DNA of 64,000 bases from Octopus vulgaris. Lineage: Eukaryota. Of this stretch, positions 7,999-42,581 are shown piece after piece. The translations under genes and the position numbers were made by a program. The stretch is taken from assembly GCA_951406725.2 (NCBI GenBank), contig OX597827.1, positions 83,762,001-83,826,000 on the forward strand, given 5' to 3'. The notes under the pieces were generated by a model that did not search any database, was not told the DNA's origin, and was given only the letters and a program-made list of their open reading frames with translations. Within the stretch, counting starts at the first letter, position 1; each line of letters begins with the position of its first letter.

Positions 7999-9210
7999 CA
8001 TATATATATGAACATATATATATGCATGTATGTGTGTACACACATACACACACAAGCAGTGAGATGTGTGAGTAGTTTTCTTGATGTGTAGTTATGTAAA
8101 TTCATGTATATAACTAATGCACACACACACACATTGTATACAAAATAGGTACAAGTATGTGTGAGTGTGTGTGAGTGTGTGTGTGTGTGAAGTAGAGGAG
8201 ATGATGGGTGTTGAGCATAAATCGAAACTAACTCACTACAAACTATTCATCATGCATCACACACACACACACATCTGTGCATGTGTGTGTGTGTGTTATA
8301 TAATTTAGAATGGGGAAGATGATGGAGGTGGTGGGGCGTCAGTGGAATTCTGTTGATTTGATGGAAAACACAGGACATTAACACAACAACAACAACAACA
8401 ACCAGGACAGCCAGAGAAATATTACTCCGACAGATTACATTAATCCATTTAGATAAGGTATTAATGCAGTGTTATGGAGATGGATGTTGAGGGCAAAGGT
8501 TCAATTCTTGTCAAAGTAAGTGCTGTTCATGTCTGCCCCCTCCTGGCTGGTCAGCTGTAGAGGCCAGTCCAGTCCAGCCCATCTCCTTCTAACATGACAG
8601 CTGAGAGAGTAACGGGTGGCGACTGCCCTATCTCCACCCCACCCCACCCCACCCCACAACAATCAGCAACGGAACATGTGACCAATGTCAATGTCCCTGC
8701 CGTCGACACAAATTCAAACAAGAACCTTTTACACACACGAACTGATACAGGGCCCAGTGATAAAGCTGTTGTGCTCATGATTGCTAAATCATAGGTTCAA
8801 TTCCAGGACCAAGATGTGTGTTGTGTTCTTGAGCAAAAAACATTTCATTTCAGCATTGCTCCAGTCCACACAGCTGTAAATGGGTCACTCTGTGATGGAC
8901 CAACCTTCTGATTGGGAGGGCTTGCTCACCCAACGAGCAGGGTGGCATCGTTAGAAAGTGAAAATTGTGCAGAGCGCATTATGACCAGAAATGTGATAGT
9001 CTGGTTGATCATGTGATATTTATATACATGTACATGTGTGTATGTGTTTGTTTATATATGTATGTATGTGCATATATATATATTTATATATAGAGGGTAT
9101 TATTATACATACATGCCACACGCTAAGAGGGACAAAATTAGTCATTTCTACCAAAAATTTTACTAATCCCACCGAATGCAATTTTTCAAAGTAAGACATT
9201 TAAAAATATG

Positions 9211-9257
9211 GACTTGTATCACCTGTGATTTCATACCTCTGTATTCATCAGCAAGTC
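9211..9257 (-). ncRNA. Type I hammerhead ribozyme motif (identical mirror copy)
   Basis: Exact reverse complement of 9564-9610. Confidence 0.88.
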
Positions 9258-9563
9258 TGGACGTATCATAAATAAACGAACCCAACTCGTCTAAGCCGAG
9301 CAACTATCTGATCAACTTCAACGAAGCACATGGGTGGGTTTACATATATTACATCCGGTAAATGGCAGACTTTTACGAATTGCATTTCGGGAAAGGAAAA
9401 GTTTTTTATTCCGAAAAAACTTTTCCTTTCCCGAAATGCAATTCGTAAAAGTCTGCCATTTACCGGATGTAATATATGTAAACCCACCCATGTGCTTCGT
9501 TGAAGTTGATCAGATAGTTGCTCGGCTTAGACGAGTTGGGTTCGTTTATTTATGATACGTCCA

Positions 9564-9610
9564 GACTTGCTGATGAATACAGAGGTATGAAATCACAGGT
9601 GATACAAGTC
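9564..9610 (+). ncRNA. Type I hammerhead ribozyme motif, complete
   Basis: GACTTG-CTGATGA-ATAC(AGAG)GTAT-GAAA-TCAC(AG)GTGA-TA-CAAGTC: 6-bp stem I, exact CUGAUGA and GAAA core, 4-bp stem II, stem III and an AUA triplet. Predicted cut after 9604. Confidence 0.88.
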
Positions 9611-9873
9611 CATATTTTTAAATGTCTTACTTTGAAAAATTGCATTCGGTGGGATTAGTAAAATTTTTGGTAGAAATGACTAATTTTGTCCCTCTTAGCG
9701 TGTAGCATGTATGTATAATAATGCCCTCTATATATAAATTAATATGTTCAATAAGAAAGAATTATTTTCGAAATTTTTTCTTTTATGAGGTTTTTCACGC
9801 TATCTACCCGATAATTTCTTGTTAAGTTTTCCTTATTAAGAAGTTGTCCTTAATTGCTATATATATATATATA

Positions 9874-10202
9874 GGCACATGGCTCAGTGGTTAGAGCATC
9901 GAGCTTACGATCGTGAGGTTGTGAGCTCGAATCCCGGACCGGGCTGCGTGTTGTGTTCTTGAGCAAGGCACTTTATTTCACGTTGCTCCAGTTCACTCAA
10001 CTGTAGAAATGAGTTGCGACGTCACAGGTGCCAAGCTGTATCGACCTTTGTCTTTCCCTTGGATAACACTGGTGGCGTGGAGAGGGGAGGCTGGTATGCA
10101 TGGGCGACTGCTGATCTTCCATAAACAACCTTGCCCGGACATGTGTCTAGGAGGGTAACTTTCTAGGTGCAATCCCATGGTCATTCATGACCGAAGGGGG
10201 TC
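9874..10202 (+). mobile_element. tRNA-derived SINE, well preserved
   Basis: A box TGGCTCAGTGG, B-box-like GAGCTCGAATCCC, central CTTGAGCAAGGCACTT motif; flanked by (TA)n. Relatives at about 2836(+), 8750(+) and 30057-30380(-). Confidence 0.85.
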
Positions 10203-11253
10203 AGAAAATATATATATATATATAAATAAAAGAATATGGATTCAAAGAATCAAACAAAGCTTGCTGTAAGCTCTGTGTTTGGTGCCTGACTTTCAGGAAA
10301 AACAGTAGTCAAAGAAAGGATATAATCTCACTGTTGTTTTGAAAATTCAGGAATCACAGTGGTGGAGAATATGTACATAAATTGGCCAGATAAGGGATGT
10401 GAGAGAACAGAAGTTAATTCCATTTGTTGACAGCTGTTTCATAATCTGTGTCAGTTACATAAGAAAGACTACATCATCCACCATATAAATATATATCACC
10501 ATCATTTAATGTCTGTTTTCTGTACCAACATAGAAAACGGGTGTTAAAGGATGATGATGGTGATGATCATGATGATGATGATACATACCTATAAATATAA
10601 CTGTACCATAATATAATGAACAGATTACACATCAGAACATTTCATGGCAAGTCAAACACCAGATTTTGCTATCAATTACAGTGTAACAAAATTCGTTAGA
10701 CTTTGGTCAGTCAGTGTTATTTCCTATTTGCTTCTATCGAGAAATCAAAGGAACTGACAAGTATTTTGTTCAATGTTTTGAAACTGACCTGTTTTCTCAT
10801 ACATTTCAGATAGATTCGTTATAGCAAATATTCTGTTTAACAGCACATATTTGCTTGTCAGTTGCTAGGCCATAACCACTTGAGCATGTCCCTCAGTGAC
10901 TGACAATATGTGCATCTCTGATCATGATCAGGAGTAGCGGGTGAGCATCATGACCATGTATTGAGAGGGATTCTTTGGGGTTTGAATAAATGTAACAAAA
11001 GCAAAGAGGAAATAACTGTTGCTACACAAGGACAAAAATCGTATTACACAGTGTTATCAAGTTGTAGCAGACAATAGCATGTATGTGGTCATGGTAGTAT
11101 TTATAATAAGTGAAGTCTACAAATCACATCTATTGTCTGCTACCATATAATGAAGCAACTTGCTATTTTATAGCAGAATCTGGGCTTTGACTTGCCATGA
11201 AATGTTCTGATGTATAGTTTGTTCATTATGTTTCAGCACTATCATATTTATGG

Positions 11254-11295
<42 letters not shown>

Positions 11296-25718: not shown

Positions 25719-27995
25719 TTAGAATTTAGGGGACCTCTTATGTGTCCATAGCTTACACTTGGTGCATCTTATAGAGTTTCTACCTACGCCTTTTCTACAG
25801 ATCGAGCAGGGCCATCTACCTGAAGGCGTTTGTGATTTGTCTACCTTCCTACTTATTAGGACTTTGATTTTAGCTAGGTTAACTCTAAGGCCCTTCGATT
25901 CTAATCCTTGCTTCCACACCTGGAACTTCTCCTCTAGTTCTGATAGTGACTCAGCAATTAGAGCAAGGTCATCAGCATAGAGGAGCTCCCAGGGGCATCC
26001 TGTCTTGAATTCCTCCGTTATTGCCTGGAGGACTATGATAAATAGGAGGGAGCTGAGTACCGATCCTTGGTGGACCCCAACCTCTACCCAGAATTCTTCC
26101 CTGTACTCGTTGCCAACCCTCACCTTACTAGCAGCATCCCTGTACATGGCTCGCACAGCTCTCACTAACCATTCATCTATTCCTAGTTTCCTCATTGACC
26201 ACCAGATAAGGGGTCAGGGGACCCTGTCGAAGGCTTTCTCCATGTCAACGAAAGCCAGGTACAGGGACTTATCTTTGGCTAGGTATTTCTCCTGCAGCTG
26301 CCTTACCAGGAATATAGCATCAGTGGTACTTTTCCCTGGCACGAACCCAAACTGCATCTCATCTAAACTAACTCTCTCTCTAATTAGTTGGGCTATGACC
26401 CTCTCCGTAACCTTCATTACCTGATCCAACAGCTTGATACCCCTGTAGTTATTTGTATCTAGGGCGTTACCTTTACCTTTGTAGCAGTTGACTATTATGC
26501 TGCTACACCAGTACTTGGGAATGACTCCTTCATGTATCACCTGGTTAATTATACGGGTGACTAGGCTATAGCCAACACTACCAGATATTTTGAGCATCTC
26601 TGCAGTGATTCCTGATGGGCCTGGGGCTTTCCCTGTCTTCATGCTTCTAATTGCCTTAACTACCAAGGAACTGTCAACTCGCATAGCTGGTCCCTCTGTT
26701 GGGTCGACATTCGGCAGACTCTCTTTATCCCATTCATTTTCTTGATTCAGCAACCTTTCATAGTGACGTCTCCAAACCTCTCTCTTTGCATCCTCATTTA
26801 GCGCAAGTGAACCATCATCCATGCAAACACATTTCTCTCCTACCACATCACGATTCTCTCTCACACACTGTCTTGTAACACGAAATACCTCAAGTCTTTC
26901 ATCCTCACAGCGCAGAACATTGGCAAATTTTTTCTTATCTGCTTCCCCCCTGGCTAAATACACCTGCCTCCTAGCTTCCCTTCTGGCAGTCTGATACACT
27001 TCCCTGCTACCACCGTTCTTCCAGTCCTTCCAAGCCTGTTTCTTTTGTCTAATAGCCCTGTCAACAATATTGTTCCACCACCACGTTATTTTGGGTCTTG
27101 AGGGAACTTTGCATCAACCACAGATCTGGTCAGTGGCTCTCAGCAGGTTGTCCCTTAGAGACCTCCAGTTGTCTTCTACCCCATGTGAAGCTATATCCCC
27201 TTCTATTTCGTCAAAAGCTTCAAGTAATATGTCTCTAAATCTCTGTCCATTCGCAGGATCTTTAAGCTTCCAGACCCTTCTTCTCCATGTTGGTTGTCTT
27301 CTGGTCATCCTCTTAGTCCTGATCCTAAAGTCACTCACTACCAGTCTATGTTGTGGGGTACATTCTTCGCCTGGGAAGGTTTTGGCATTTATAAGCAGCC
27401 ATCTTTCCCTTTTTCTGGCAAGGTTGTAGTCGATTTGGCTAGTATGTCGGCCCGATTGGTAGGTGACTAGGTGGCTGGTAGGTTTCCTGAAGTTAGTGTT
27501 GCAAACCATAAGACTATTCGCATCGCAGAACTCCAGCAGCCTGGTTCCCTCCTCGTTGCGGGAACCATAACCGTAGCCTCCATGTACGCCATGGAAGCCC
27601 TCAGCATGTCGTCCAACATGCCCATTGAAGTCACCAGCCACAAAGAGAAGGTCCCTGTTGTTCGTTGATGATGTAATCTGCAGTAGGGTGTCATAGAATC
27701 GGTCTTTCTGTCCATCGGGTAGCCCTGGCTGAGGGGCATAGGCTGATATAATGGTTGCTAATCCATGATGAAGCACTAATCTAATCTTAAGTATTCTGTC
27801 ACTTACTCTGATTACCTCTATTACCTTATCTACCCATTTTTCAGCGATAAGTATACTCACACACCCGACCCCGTTAGTGTTCCCAGCCCAGAAAATCTTG
27901 TACCTGTGTTCTTTGCCTGTGAGGAACCTAGCAGAACCTCCTCTCCACCTCACTTCTTGAATGCAACACATATCAATACACCTTCGTTCAAGCAA
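25719..27995 (-). pseudogene. RTE-clade non-LTR retrotransposon ORF: AP endonuclease, reverse transcriptase and a Cys/His finger; broken by premature stops and truncated at both ends
   Basis: 27114-27995 has APE motifs (CIQEVRW, SAYAPQ, AGDFNGHVG, QIDY). 26214-26999 has KAPGPSG, NYRGIKLL, QFGFVPGKSTTDAIF, AFVDMEKAFDRV. 25719-26195 has GVHQGSVLS, LLYADD and CSIC..CTKC...HKR. Confidence 0.95.
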
Positions 27996-28000
27996 CTCAA

Positions 28001-28110
<110 letters not shown>

Positions 28111-30056
28111 TTATAAGCTTAAAGCCTATAGTCTATTACTGGGGCATATAAGCCCTTGATGGAAAAAAGTGGGTCTCAATATTAGAGTATTTTCTTTAGT
28201 CAGAATTGTCACTCATCACTGCTTCCACATTTGATGCAGAATATGTAGGAACACAAATATCTATGGATGTACACACAGACATATGTATATGTGTACATAC
28301 AGATGCGTGTGTGTGTGTGTGTCTATGTGTGTATGTATGCATCAATGTACATAGACACACACACACACACACAGAGCACACACATATACATGTATGTATG
28401 TACTGAAGTTTTTGTACAACAGTATGATGTGTATAAGATAGGGGAGTGTATAATGAGAGAAAATAAAAAACAATCTTGTGTAGAAGTGATACAATTACTT
28501 CTGACTAGCTGTGATATACCCCAGAGGAAAGTTAGGTTGATATACCCTGGGGGTAGCTGAAGTGAATCTAGGAATATATTTTGATGTCTACTTACTTGTC
28601 AGGTAGAATTAGTCAGTGTGATAGTGGGTATAAATGGATGGGTATCTCACAGGTAACGATACTGTTAATGGGGTGGGCGAAGGTAGGGGTGAAGATGATT
28701 GCAAGGGTGTTAGGGGTATTGATGATGGTAAGGTTAGTGGTGGTGGTTCAACGGTGTCACAGGTGCCATAGCTATTGTTGTTTGGTGTTAAATCCTCTCA
28801 TGGGACCCTCCTTACATGGGCAGCCCCCCACTCCCAGTACCAACCAGCTGACTGCACCACTGACAACAATTTTAACATCTCATTAATTAATGTAGTTTTT
28901 AGCACAATCTTTATTAATGATGAAATTATTGACTGATTGCCAGTGGTGACACTGACGCTCACCCCCCCCCCCCCACACACACATGTGCGTATTGACACGG
29001 TTGCTTCTGAATGGCTGTGCTATACCGCAGGGTTTATCCGTGGGGTATATCACAACTATGATACCCTCCGAGGGTAGTTGAAGCTAGTTTAATTTACTCA
29101 AGTGGTAACCAAAGTTCTGTTTATATATCCCTGGAGTATATAAACCAACTCCTGTGTTTGTGTGTTTGCACTTACATCTACCTACCCTACTCTCACTCTG
29201 TCTAATTACCTACCTACCTACCTGTCAGTCTATCTATTCAGTCCTCACTCTTCTGTGGATACATTTTAGGGCAATGAAGGAATTCTGTAGCCTTAGTAGG
29301 GTCAGGTCACCTCCCTAAAACTAGTGCCAAAATAAAACCCATCAAAGGACACTGTGAAGTGGTCAGAGATAGGAAGGACATGTCTAGCAGTGCATAGGAA
29401 GGATATGGCCAGTGGTACATAGGAAGAACATGGTCAAAATGAAACAAATGAATGGTTGGTTTCTGACTAAAATCTAGTCATGAAATATTGTTGTATAAGA
29501 AGTGAGCTGTCCAGGCCATGGCAACATGGGAAGCAGATGCTAAATTGTGATGATAATGATGATGACAACAATGACGATGATGACAATATATTTGTATATG
29601 CAAATATGGATATATGCTTGTGTGTGTTTGTATATATGCATGGTATAAAATGACATAAGCCATCAAGCTAGCTGGCAGCAAACATTGGCCCTGTGCCACC
29701 AAAGGTTCATTCACATAAATTCTTCAATGGTTCATGGTTCTCCAATATTACCAACAATCTACGCAACATTCCCTACAACTTCCTCCCCCACTTCTCTCTC
29801 TTCACACAAATATCATCATCATCATCATCATCATTGTTTTAATGTCTACTTTTCTATGTTTGCATGGGTTTGTTGGAATTAACTGAGGCAGATTTCCTTT
29901 AGCCAAATGCCCTTCCCACCCCCAATCCTCACCAGTTTCCATACAAGGTAATATTTCCCAATGGCCACATTCTCACAAATTCTGGGAAACGACACTGCTT
30001 GTATGACACTGACACTCGTTTACAACAATCATGCGATGTCAAGACACACACACACT

Positions 30057-30380
30057 GGCACTCTGTTGGTTATGATGATAAATGCTCCAGCTGATCCAGT
30101 CAGAGAACAGCCTGCTTGTGAAATTCATGTGCAAGTGGCTGAGCACTCCACAGACACATGTACCCCTAACGTAGTTCTCAGGGAGATTCAGCCATCACAC
30201 AGAATAAGACAAGCCTGGCCCCTTGTGAATTACAGGTACCACTCATTATTGCCAGCTGAGTGGACTGGAGCAATGTGAAATAAAGTGTCTTGCTTAAGGA
30301 CACAATGCACTGTTGGGAATAGAACTCAAAGCCTTACAACCGTGAACCAAATATCCCTAACCACTCAGCCACATTGCCTT
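30057..30380 (-). mobile_element. tRNA-derived SINE
   Basis: Minus strand has A box TGGCTGAGTGG, B box GAGTTCTATTCCC and CCTTAAGCAAGACACTTTATTTCAC, as in the 9874 copy. Confidence 0.75.
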
Positions 30381-41288: not shown

Positions 41289-42581
41289 TGAGGGACGTTC
41301 ATAAAGTAATGCCCCTGACCCACTTGCAGTTGTTTGATCTAGCTGAAATTTTGCGTGTGAAATTATTTATATCTCTATAGAGTAGGTGGCAAATTACAGC
41401 TCTGAGCCAATTGTGGTTTCTGATTTACAGGTGTTTGAACTGAGTCAAGTGTGAAATGGAACCTGTTGAGTGTCGAGCAGTGATCCGGTTTTTGTATTTG
41501 AAAGGACGCACACCACGGGAGACTTTTGATGAAATGAAAGTAACTTATGGTGATGATGCCCCATCATATGACCTTGTAAAACGCTGGCATTGTGAATTCA
41601 AACATGGTCGGAACTCTGTGGAAACAGCTCCCAGATCTGGTCGCCCCCCTTCTGCCATTGATGAGCCATCTGTCCGTCAAGTTCAGGCTACCATTTTGGA
41701 AGATCGACGCATAACTATTCGCCAAATAGCCCATGAGGTCAAGATTAGTACCGGGTCTGTGGAAACTATCATTCATGACCATTTGCATATGCAAAAGGTG
41801 TCTGCCAGATGGATTCCCAGGTTGCTCACAACTTTCCAGAGGCAAGAACGCGTCGAGTGCTCGAAGATGAACTTGGAGATGTGCCAAGAAGATGAGTCAA
41901 CATTTTTCAAAAGACTGATTACATAGGATGAAACCTGGGTTCATCACTATGATCCAGAGACCAAAGCCCAGTCAATGCAGTGGAAGCACCGTGACTCACC
42001 TCCTCCAAAGAAGGCAAGGGTGCAGCCCTCCGCTGGCAAGGTCATGCTCACAGTCTTCTGAAACCAGGACGGAGTAGTGATGACAGATTTCCTGGCAAAG
42101 GGTACCACAATTACAGGAGCCTATTATGCTTCACTTTTGAGGAAATTAAGAGAAGCTATCAAAATCAAGAGGCGGGGCAAGATCAGCAAAGGCATCCTCC
42201 TCCTGCAGGACAACGCTCCGGTCCACAACTCGTGTGTCGCCAGATCAGAAGCACAGGCGTGCGGCTATGAACTTCTCTCCCATCCCCTCTACTCTCCTGA
42301 CCTTGCACCCTCTGATTTTCACCTCTTTCCAGCTATGAAGTTGTTTTTGAAAGGAAAGCGTTTCCCAGATGATGCAACCTTGATTTCTGAAGTCACGTCG
42401 TGGTTGGAGGACCAAGCTGGGGTCTTCTTTAAAAACGATCTCCAGCGCTGCATCAAACGATGGGAGAAATATGTAACTCTGGGTGGTTCCTATGTAGAAA
42501 AAGACTAATAACTGTACCAAGTTTCGTTGCTCTACTGCTATGGGAAGTGGGTCAGGGGCATTACTTATTGAACGCCCCTCG
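41289..42581 (+). mobile_element. Full-length mariner transposon (1293 bp) with TA target-site duplication
   Basis: TIRs TGAGGGACGTTCATAAAGTAATGCCCCTGACCCACTT / AAGTGGGTCAGGGGCATTACTTATTGAACGCCCCTCG; TA at 41287-41288 and 42582-42583. Confidence 0.96.
41456..42508 (+). pseudogene. Mariner D,D34D transposase (350 codons, two in-frame stops), irritans/Himar1-like by motif resemblance
   Basis: One frame from 41456 to 42508 with RSGRP, WIPR, DETWVHHY, QDNAPVH and YSPDLAPSDF (34 residues between the last two catalytic D). Stops: TAG 41924-41926 and TGA 42059-42061. Confidence 0.95.

What the first reader, a model, noticed from the sequence alone, without database searches (positions are those of the whole stretch)
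9082..9870. Young 658-bp palindrome with an intact hammerhead ribozyme on each strand
Seen: two 326-bp arms with 2 mismatches and a 6-nt spacer. Each arm encodes a complete type I hammerhead pointing outward (9564-9610 plus, 9211-9257 minus), and non-microsatellite sequence continues past the right arm to about 9860. Established: type I hammerheads mark Penelope-like element pseudo-LTRs and retrozymes, and Penelope insertions often include inverted partial repeats. Inference: a recent non-autonomous ribozyme retroelement inserted head-to-head. Read-through from either side makes the antisense arm first, which would give a long dsRNA that masks the ribozyme and could be an ADAR or Dicer substrate. 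Transcripts starting at the centre could self-cleave.
Basis: partly seen in the sequence, partly recalled or inferred. Interest (0 to 1): 0.85.

Follow-up and report, generated by a model that had tools for sequence, protein, structure and literature searches.

The report
Head-to-head copy of a ribozyme retroelement
The palindrome is one of many recent back-to-back insertions of a 459-base non-coding repeat that carries a hammerhead-ribozyme motif and sits in TA repeats; its two arms almost always stop at two different fixed points 120 bases apart, which likely records a Penelope-type enzyme copying the RNA onto both cut DNA ends.

Summary
The palindrome is real: arms 9082-9407 and 9414-9739, 2 mismatches, a type I hammerhead motif on each strand. 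It is an ordinary copy of a dispersed 459-nt non-coding family: at least 106 exact motif matches, 642 with sister subfamilies, inserted into (TA)n. The 6-nt 'spacer' is the end of the monomer, and 9740-9858 is a Penelope-style tail. In 56 of 60 classifiable head-to-head loci, one arm ends at site A (window 9739) and the other at site B (9858); about half would be expected by chance. In 26 of these 56, neither arm can be a copy of the other. Inner ends do not pile up at the ribozyme cut site. This fits priming of both DNA ends on an uncleaved tandem or circular RNA. A young Neptune-type autonomous element follows the same A/B rule (9 of 9) but shows no significant DNA homology. Stems I and II covary across subfamilies. 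Rfam finds nothing, and the lone motif is predicted to misfold, so cleavage probably needs a dimer. Cleavage, circles, expression and dsRNA processing are untested. New member of a known kind, with a useful mechanistic footprint.

The parts
9072..9081 (.). (AT)n target remnant, left flank
   Evidence: sequence; family copies are flanked by TA runs
9082..9407 (-). Inverted arm: monomer positions 1-326, outer end at site A
9211..9257 (-). Type I hammerhead motif, mirror copy
9403..9418 (+). Join of the two arms at a small natural hairpin of the monomer (T5, ATTCCG loop, A5). 9408-9413 is the end of the monomer; 9403-9407 fits both arms
9408..9858 (+). Direct arm: 451 of the 459 nt of the monomer, outer end at site B
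9564..9610 (+). Type I hammerhead motif: stem I 9564-9569/9605-9610, core 9570-9576, stem II 9577-9588, GAAA 9589-9592, short near-palindromic helix III 9593-9602, predicted cut after 9604
9724..9739 (+). Site A, first fixed end of family copies (TA-like motif ending in AAAT)
9740..9858 (+). 119-nt tail between site A and site B, present on one arm only; predicted as two hairpins
9859..9873 (.). (AT)n target remnant, right flank
   Evidence: sequence

Best explanation
This is one head-to-head insertion of a 459-nt non-coding, hammerhead-bearing repeat family (an animal retrozyme), likely pasted into a (TA)n tract by the reverse transcriptase-endonuclease of a Penelope-like element of the Neptune type, which would have primed both cut DNA ends on uncleaved retrozyme RNA. 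Shown: the family, the monomer length, TA flanks, two fixed outer ends (A and B, about 120 nt apart), variable inner ends, one A arm plus one B arm per insertion, and arms from the same source lineage. Inferred steps: (1) a PLE protein, probably dimeric, cuts both strands in (TA)n; (2) one 3' end is extended from site B and the other from site A on a tandem or circular RNA that is not cut at the ribozyme; (3) the two cDNAs are joined through a few bases of microhomology, here the T5/A5 hairpin at the monomer boundary, which gives a near-perfect palindrome with the tail on one side; (4) the hammerhead acts at another stage, releasing monomers from tandem transcripts, probably as a double hammerhead.
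For: Family: 1,801 candidates with 40 scored; 106 exact 43-nt motif matches and 138 exact matches of a 29-mer, controls 0; 642 core-plus-helix-III matches and 1,063 matches of a tail motif across sister subfamilies. Tandem period 459; the monomer-to-monomer joint is in contigs of 4 of 4 runs laid. Of 65 head-to-head loci, 56 are A+B, 3 B+B, 1 A+A and 5 have one end elsewhere; 56 of 60 against an expected share of 0.50 gives p=4e-13. In the pattern-ascertained subset 38 of 43 are A+B. In 26 of 56 neither arm is contained in the other, so both were templated separately. Arms share minor alleles at 190 sites against about 30 expected for random family members. Junctions overlap by microhomology in 30 of 56. 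No inner end lies at the cut site among 171 (nearest 186, 189, 199), and 14 arms cross two cut sites. A young autonomous element with intact 479-aa and 781-aa frames (RT and GIY-YIG) also inserts in (TA)n with two ends 40 nt apart, both ending in AAAT; its visible partner arm ended at A in 9 of 9 B-ended loci, and 21 of 30 had no partner end within 1.5 kb. In vitro, a Poseidon protein cuts and extends both strands, starts at two internal sites that define the tail, and does not need ribozyme cleavage (PMC11167929, main text read). Stems I and II show double-sided changes across 39 motif variants.
Against: No autonomous partner with matching DNA was found. The best candidate's end aligns no better than controls (19 of 300 Markov controls reach the score). 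None of 50 GIY-YIG loci examined, of 150 listed and 6,136 candidates, has a homologous terminal repeat. The tail is about 120 nt, not the 30-40 bp in print. At this locus the A arm lies wholly inside the B arm and the inner ends coincide, which a fold-back of one cDNA explains equally well; 14 of 56 loci are like this against 4.0 expected. PMC11167929 reports no difference in start site between top and bottom strands in vitro, which does not predict a strict A/B split. In two loci the tandem units of one arm differ strongly (19 of 223 and 18 of 217 columns), which argues against a single circle there. Rfam has no hit. The covariation set was anchored on the core and helix III, so their conservation is by construction.
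Confidence: 0.7

Rival explanations
1. Same element and enzyme, but this copy arose by one priming event at site B. The cDNA ran to the monomer boundary, folded back on the T5/A5 hairpin, copied itself and was resolved at site A (self-priming, as proposed for Adineta Penelopes).
For: The inner ends coincide here and in 14 of 56 loci (permutation mean 4.0, none of 20,000 reached 14). The junctions read as hairpins. Self-priming was proposed from junction palindromes (PMC3846280, passages). Four loci coincide only modulo one monomer (L015, L083, L106; L118).
Against: 26 of 56 A+B loci have non-nested arms that cannot be copies of each other. Lone arms are mostly A-ended (30 A, 2 B), yet A+A palindromes, which fold-back of an A-primed cDNA would give, are 1 of 60.
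Confidence: 0.22
2. The fold-back at this locus is an assembly or read chimera of an ordinary single-arm copy.
For: No listed contig piece bridges this centre. Perfect palindromes are a known artefact class (own knowledge).
Against: The arms differ at 2 sites. They end at the two family-specific sites A and B, as in 55 other loci with different centres. Both ends abut (TA)n.
Confidence: 0.03
3. The palindrome formed after insertion, from two separate copies or by DNA-level recombination or gene conversion, or the unit is a MITE-like DNA element with long inverted ends.
For: Near-identical arms could be homogenised after insertion. One tail-to-tail pair of separate copies exists (L082).
Against: Centres differ from locus to locus while the outer ends are fixed and asymmetric. 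41 loci are single arms, and partial tandems with 5' truncation are common. None of this fits terminal inverted repeats or random pairing.
Confidence: 0.04

Closest known systems
Metazoan non-LTR retrozymes (Cervera and de la Pena 2020, PMC7229834, passages; Li, Clavereau and Pollet 2026, bioRxiv 10.64898/2026.07.22.740005, abstract to discussion)
   Same: Non-coding monomer with one type I hammerhead, low GC (33%), short tandems, predicted highly self-paired circle (z=-4.4 against 60 shuffles), weak helix III suited to dimer action as in axolotl, co-existence with PLEs.
   Different: Dispersed, at most about 2.4 units per arm, mostly 5'-truncated and head-to-head with fixed ends and a tail. 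The 459-nt unit is slightly above the 150-450 bp range of PMC7229834. That paper has no occurrence of 'inverted' or 'head-to-head' in its main text. The parts of the 2026 preprint I read argue the PLE link from co-occurrence and phylogeny, not from insertion structure.
EN+ Penelope-like elements (Neptune, Poseidon, Naiad) and their insertion structure (PMC8557442, passages; PMC3846280, passages)
   Same: Partial tandems, 5' truncation, inverted 5' copy, tail at one end only, (TA)n preference.
   Different: No ORF; tail about 120 nt rather than 30-40; full-size helix II and a longer helix III than the minimal motifs seen in the autonomous elements here; no DNA homology shown to any autonomous family examined.
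Poseidon PAc of Anolis, in vitro (PMC11167929, main text)
   Same: Two internal reverse-transcription start sites bounding the tail; both strands cut and extended; ribozyme cleavage dispensable for insertion.
   Different: PAc is autonomous. Its start site is reported as not homologous to the target, whereas site A here is itself TA-like. No strand-specific use of the two sites was seen in vitro.
LINE-1 twin priming (recalled, from no call)
   Same: Two target ends primed on one RNA give a head-to-head inversion joined by microhomology.
   Different: There the second priming site is variable and the arms barely overlap; here both sites are fixed and the arms overlap over hundreds of bases.

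Membership tests
Metazoan non-LTR retrozyme | Type I hammerhead in the repeat unit | tested here: met
   Core and three stems by pattern; compensatory changes in stem I pairs 1-5 and stem II pairs 1-2 over 39 variants. Rfam gave no hit.
Metazoan non-LTR retrozyme | Short tandem unit of a few hundred bases | tested here: met
   Period 459 in family loci such as L009 and L026; this locus holds less than one unit per arm.
Metazoan non-LTR retrozyme | Low GC and no protein-coding frame | tested here: met
   GC 0.33; no ORF of 150 aa or more near the locus. One family locus and two sister loci had PLE protein remnants nearby.
Metazoan non-LTR retrozyme | Self-cleavage of the transcript | not testable with these tools
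   Prediction only: monomer fold disfavoured by 4.5 kcal/mol; double hammerhead -23.6 versus best dimer fold -24.2.
Metazoan non-LTR retrozyme | Expressed as monomeric circular RNA | tested here: inconclusive
   The monomer joint is in contigs of two runs only guessed to be RNA; contigs cannot tell a circle from a tandem.
Metazoan non-LTR retrozyme | No LTR, primer-binding site or polypurine tract | not tested
   No specific search was made; the layout shows no LTR pair.
EN+ Penelope-like element, insertion signature | Partial tandems, 5' truncation, inverted 5' copy | tested here: met
EN+ Penelope-like element, insertion signature | Tail at one end only | tested here: met
   56 of 60 classifiable two-armed loci.
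EN+ Penelope-like element, insertion signature | Tail length 30-40 bp | tested here: not met
   About 119-123 nt.
EN+ Penelope-like element, insertion signature | Target-site duplication | tested here: inconclusive
   Both flanks are (TA)n, so a duplication cannot be told apart.
Autonomous EN+ Penelope-like element | ORF with RT and GIY-YIG endonuclease | tested here: not met
   None in the element.
Deletion derivative of a resident autonomous PLE | DNA homology to the partner's terminal repeat | tested here: not met
   None significant in 50 GIY-YIG loci or in the longer Neptune-type loci; only a small part of the 6,136 candidates was seen.

The most novel reading that the evidence does not exclude
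These insertions are the genomic footprint of dual target-primed reverse transcription on one ribozyme-made RNA circle. A dimeric Penelope-type protein holds sites A and B, brought close by the two tail hairpins, and assigns one site to each DNA strand. This would explain the inverted ends and one-sided tail of Penelope-like elements and show by insertion structure that animal retrozymes ride on them.
Probability: 0.3. Interest if true: 0.7.

Novelty: new member of a known kind. Interest (0 to 1): 0.42.

Why it matters
The single locus is ordinary. The family is useful because its unit is short, young and numerous, so whole insertions can be read and counted. How Penelope-like elements form inverted ends and a one-sided tail is called undefined in PMC8557442, and PLE mobilisation of animal retrozymes is a proposal resting on co-occurrence and phylogeny. 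The strict one-A-one-B rule, the non-nested arms and the lack of truncation at the cut site are constraints that any model must meet. An intact young Neptune-type protein in the same genome makes a direct in vitro test possible. I found no count of this rule in the papers and passages I read. The library lacks most subscription papers, and supplements were not seen.

Tried and rejected
Rfam scans gave only hairpin-driven miRNA-model matches below their gathering scores and no hammerhead. ARAGORN found no tRNA in the window. Search for the autonomous partner: 30 plus 20 GIY-YIG loci and 22 longer stretches showed no homologous terminal repeat. A 58-nt, 72% match to the young Neptune-type end was rejected after controls. 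L149, where a sister monomer follows a PLE ORF, is 1 of 30 copies of that PLE family and so not its terminal repeat. Inner flanks of 41 single-arm copies gave no clear join to a PLE body. Linear ribozyme-cleaved monomer as template: rejected, no inner ends at the cut. Covariation in the tail hairpins: inconclusive, the alignment consensus kept only 4 pairs although most sequences fold the second hairpin alone. Sequencing runs: no listed holder is on record as RNA, which is no evidence on expression. Only contigs could be laid, and the left flank junction was not examined. Host gene context: ten longer ORFs of the window gave only LINE and mariner-type remnants; spliced genes were not sought. 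Earlier notes on this genome or sequence: none. Rows dropped before counts: L010 and L028 (duplicates of L009, L005), L124 (apparent duplicate of L123), five two-armed loci with one end outside A and B, and L082 (tail-to-tail).

Full report
Observation. The window holds a near-perfect palindrome with arms 9082-9407 and 9414-9739 and two mismatches (extends it by chance into the TA run). Each arm carries a complete type I hammerhead motif. These were the only two hits in 64 kb on both strands, with none in 40 Markov resamples. Rfam did not recognise the motif. The right arm continues for 119 nt to 9858, and both ends abut (AT)n. The window lies in a 2.8-Gb genome of 227 contigs. No call names the organism.

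What it is. A search with 9414-9858 returned 1,801 candidates, 40 scored, at 88-100% identity for the long matches. Exact patterns gave 106 and 138 matches for the young subfamily, and 642 and 1,063 when sister subfamilies are included; all controls were 0. These are matches, not loci. The unit is non-coding, 33% GC, and folds as a circle better than shuffles (z=-4.4, 60 shuffles). The monomer-to-monomer joint appears in contigs of all four runs laid, two of them only guessed to be RNA. Near-identical sequence is held by runs of five coded organism labels; only runs of label A were laid.

Anatomy of insertions. I held 108 loci and dropped one duplicate: 65 are head-to-head, 41 single-armed and 1 tail-to-tail. 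Outer ends fall at site A (monomer 326, window 9739) or site B (445-449, window 9858), followed by (TA)n. Among head-to-head loci, 56 have one A and one B end, 3 are B+B, 1 is A+A and 5 have one end elsewhere. 56 of 60 against an expected 0.50 gives p=4e-13. The first 28 loci were picked by full-length similarity, which favours B arms; in the pattern-ascertained subset the result is 38 A+B, 1 A+A, 0 B+B and 4 other. Single arms in that subset are 30 A and 2 B; at least one hides a very short B arm (L183). Inner ends vary, 30 of 56 junctions overlap by a few bases, and 14 of 56 have coinciding inner ends (permutation mean 4.0, none of 20,000 reached 14). This locus is one of the 14; its centre is the natural T5-ATTCCG-A5 hairpin. 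In 26 of 56 loci neither arm is contained in the other; in 26 A lies inside B and in 4 B lies inside A. Arms of one locus differ at 2.2% of columns against a family median of 5.1%, and share minor alleles at 190 sites against about 30 expected. Later gene conversion could add to this. Here the arms differ at 2 of 311 columns and the nearest other locus at 1, so the copy is young.

The ribozyme. Across 39 variants, stem I pairs 1-5 and stem II pairs 1-2 change on both sides while staying paired. This supports selection for the fold in the family's history; core and helix III conservation is built into the search. The isolated motif is predicted to misfold (-5.8 versus -10.3 kcal/mol). Two copies form a double hammerhead within 0.6 kcal/mol of the best dimer fold through the near-palindromic helix III, as described for axolotl retrozymes (PMC7229834, passages). 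No inner end sits at the cut site among 171 and 14 arms cross it twice, so the insertion template was not a cleaved linear monomer. It was an uncut tandem transcript or a circle. Most multi-unit arms have near-identical units, but two have clearly different ones, so a circle cannot be the only template.

The enzyme. The genome has 6,136 GIY-YIG candidates. One young family has intact 479-aa and 781-aa frames at 93-100% identity between copies, weak RT and GIY-YIG Pfam matches and a cysteine motif before the nuclease. By PMC8557442 (passages) that places it with Neptune or Nematis. It inserts in (TA)n, has two ends 40 nt apart and paired B with A in 9 of 9 visible cases among 30 loci. Its DNA similarity to the monomer is not significant, and no other family examined matched. 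The partner is therefore a candidate, not identified.

Mechanism. Best reading: both cut ends of a (TA)n target are extended on retrozyme RNA, one from A and one from B, and the cDNAs are joined by microhomology. The biochemical basis is PMC11167929 (main text and start of methods read): both strands cut and extended, two internal start sites, cleavage not needed, dimer predicted. That paper saw no strand preference between the sites, so the strict A/B split goes beyond it. Self-priming fold-back (PMC3846280, passages) remains possible for this locus and the other coincident ones, but cannot give the 26 non-nested cases. The tail is predicted to fold into two hairpins (z=-4.1, 0 of 200 shuffles) that could bring A and B together; covariation there was inconclusive. 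An artefact is unlikely, although this centre has no independent read support.

Comparison and verdict. It works like a non-autonomous Penelope-like element and meets the sequence-level tests for an animal non-LTR retrozyme (PMC7229834, passages; bioRxiv 10.64898/2026.07.22.740005, parts 1-3 of 5, supplements not seen). Cleavage and circles are untested. Inverted copies and a one-sided tail are known for PLEs. The long tail and the counted A/B rule are the additions; I did not find them in what I read. New member of a known kind; interest 0.42.

Noticed in passing
window 9874-10203 (+): A repeat starts right after the TA run, with weaker copies at 8802-8878 and 30253-30371. By eye it has A-box and B-box-like motifs of a tRNA-derived SINE (label recalled); it points away from the palindrome.
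   Followed up: partly
window 25719-28118 (-): Broken LINE-type element: AP-endonuclease and RT Pfam matches in three consecutive frames separated by stops.
   Followed up: partly
window 41444-41926 (+): Mariner/Mos1-type transposase helix-turn-helix remnant.
   Followed up: no
window 10581-10678 and 11164-11261: A 98-nt inverted repeat, 81% complementary, arms 485 nt apart.
   Followed up: no
L149:70-1693: A sister-subfamily monomer is joined in the same orientation to the middle of the 3' untranslated part of an old PLE, replacing its end; 1 of 30 copies of that PLE family. Possibly a template switch between PLE and retrozyme RNA, or a later deletion.
   Followed up: partly
L238, L249, L064: Young Neptune-type PLE with an upstream 479-aa frame of no clear Pfam family before the 781-aa RT-endonuclease frame, and a degenerate minimal hammerhead-like motif near its end.
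   Followed up: partly
L207:1821-4983: Another PLE family with 766-bp inverted arms that are 100% identical and a minimal hammerhead-like motif with a four-base palindromic helix III.
   Followed up: no
L069:2272-2865 (-): A different hammerhead-bearing repeat with a period of about 450 nt and another helix III; probably a second retrozyme family.
   Followed up: no
L131-L160: At least five sister subfamilies share helix III and the tail but differ in helix II length (12 to 31 nt) and stem I sequence.
   Followed up: partly
L003, L023: Tandem units within one arm differ at about 8% of columns, which suggests a mixed template or a template switch.
   Followed up: no
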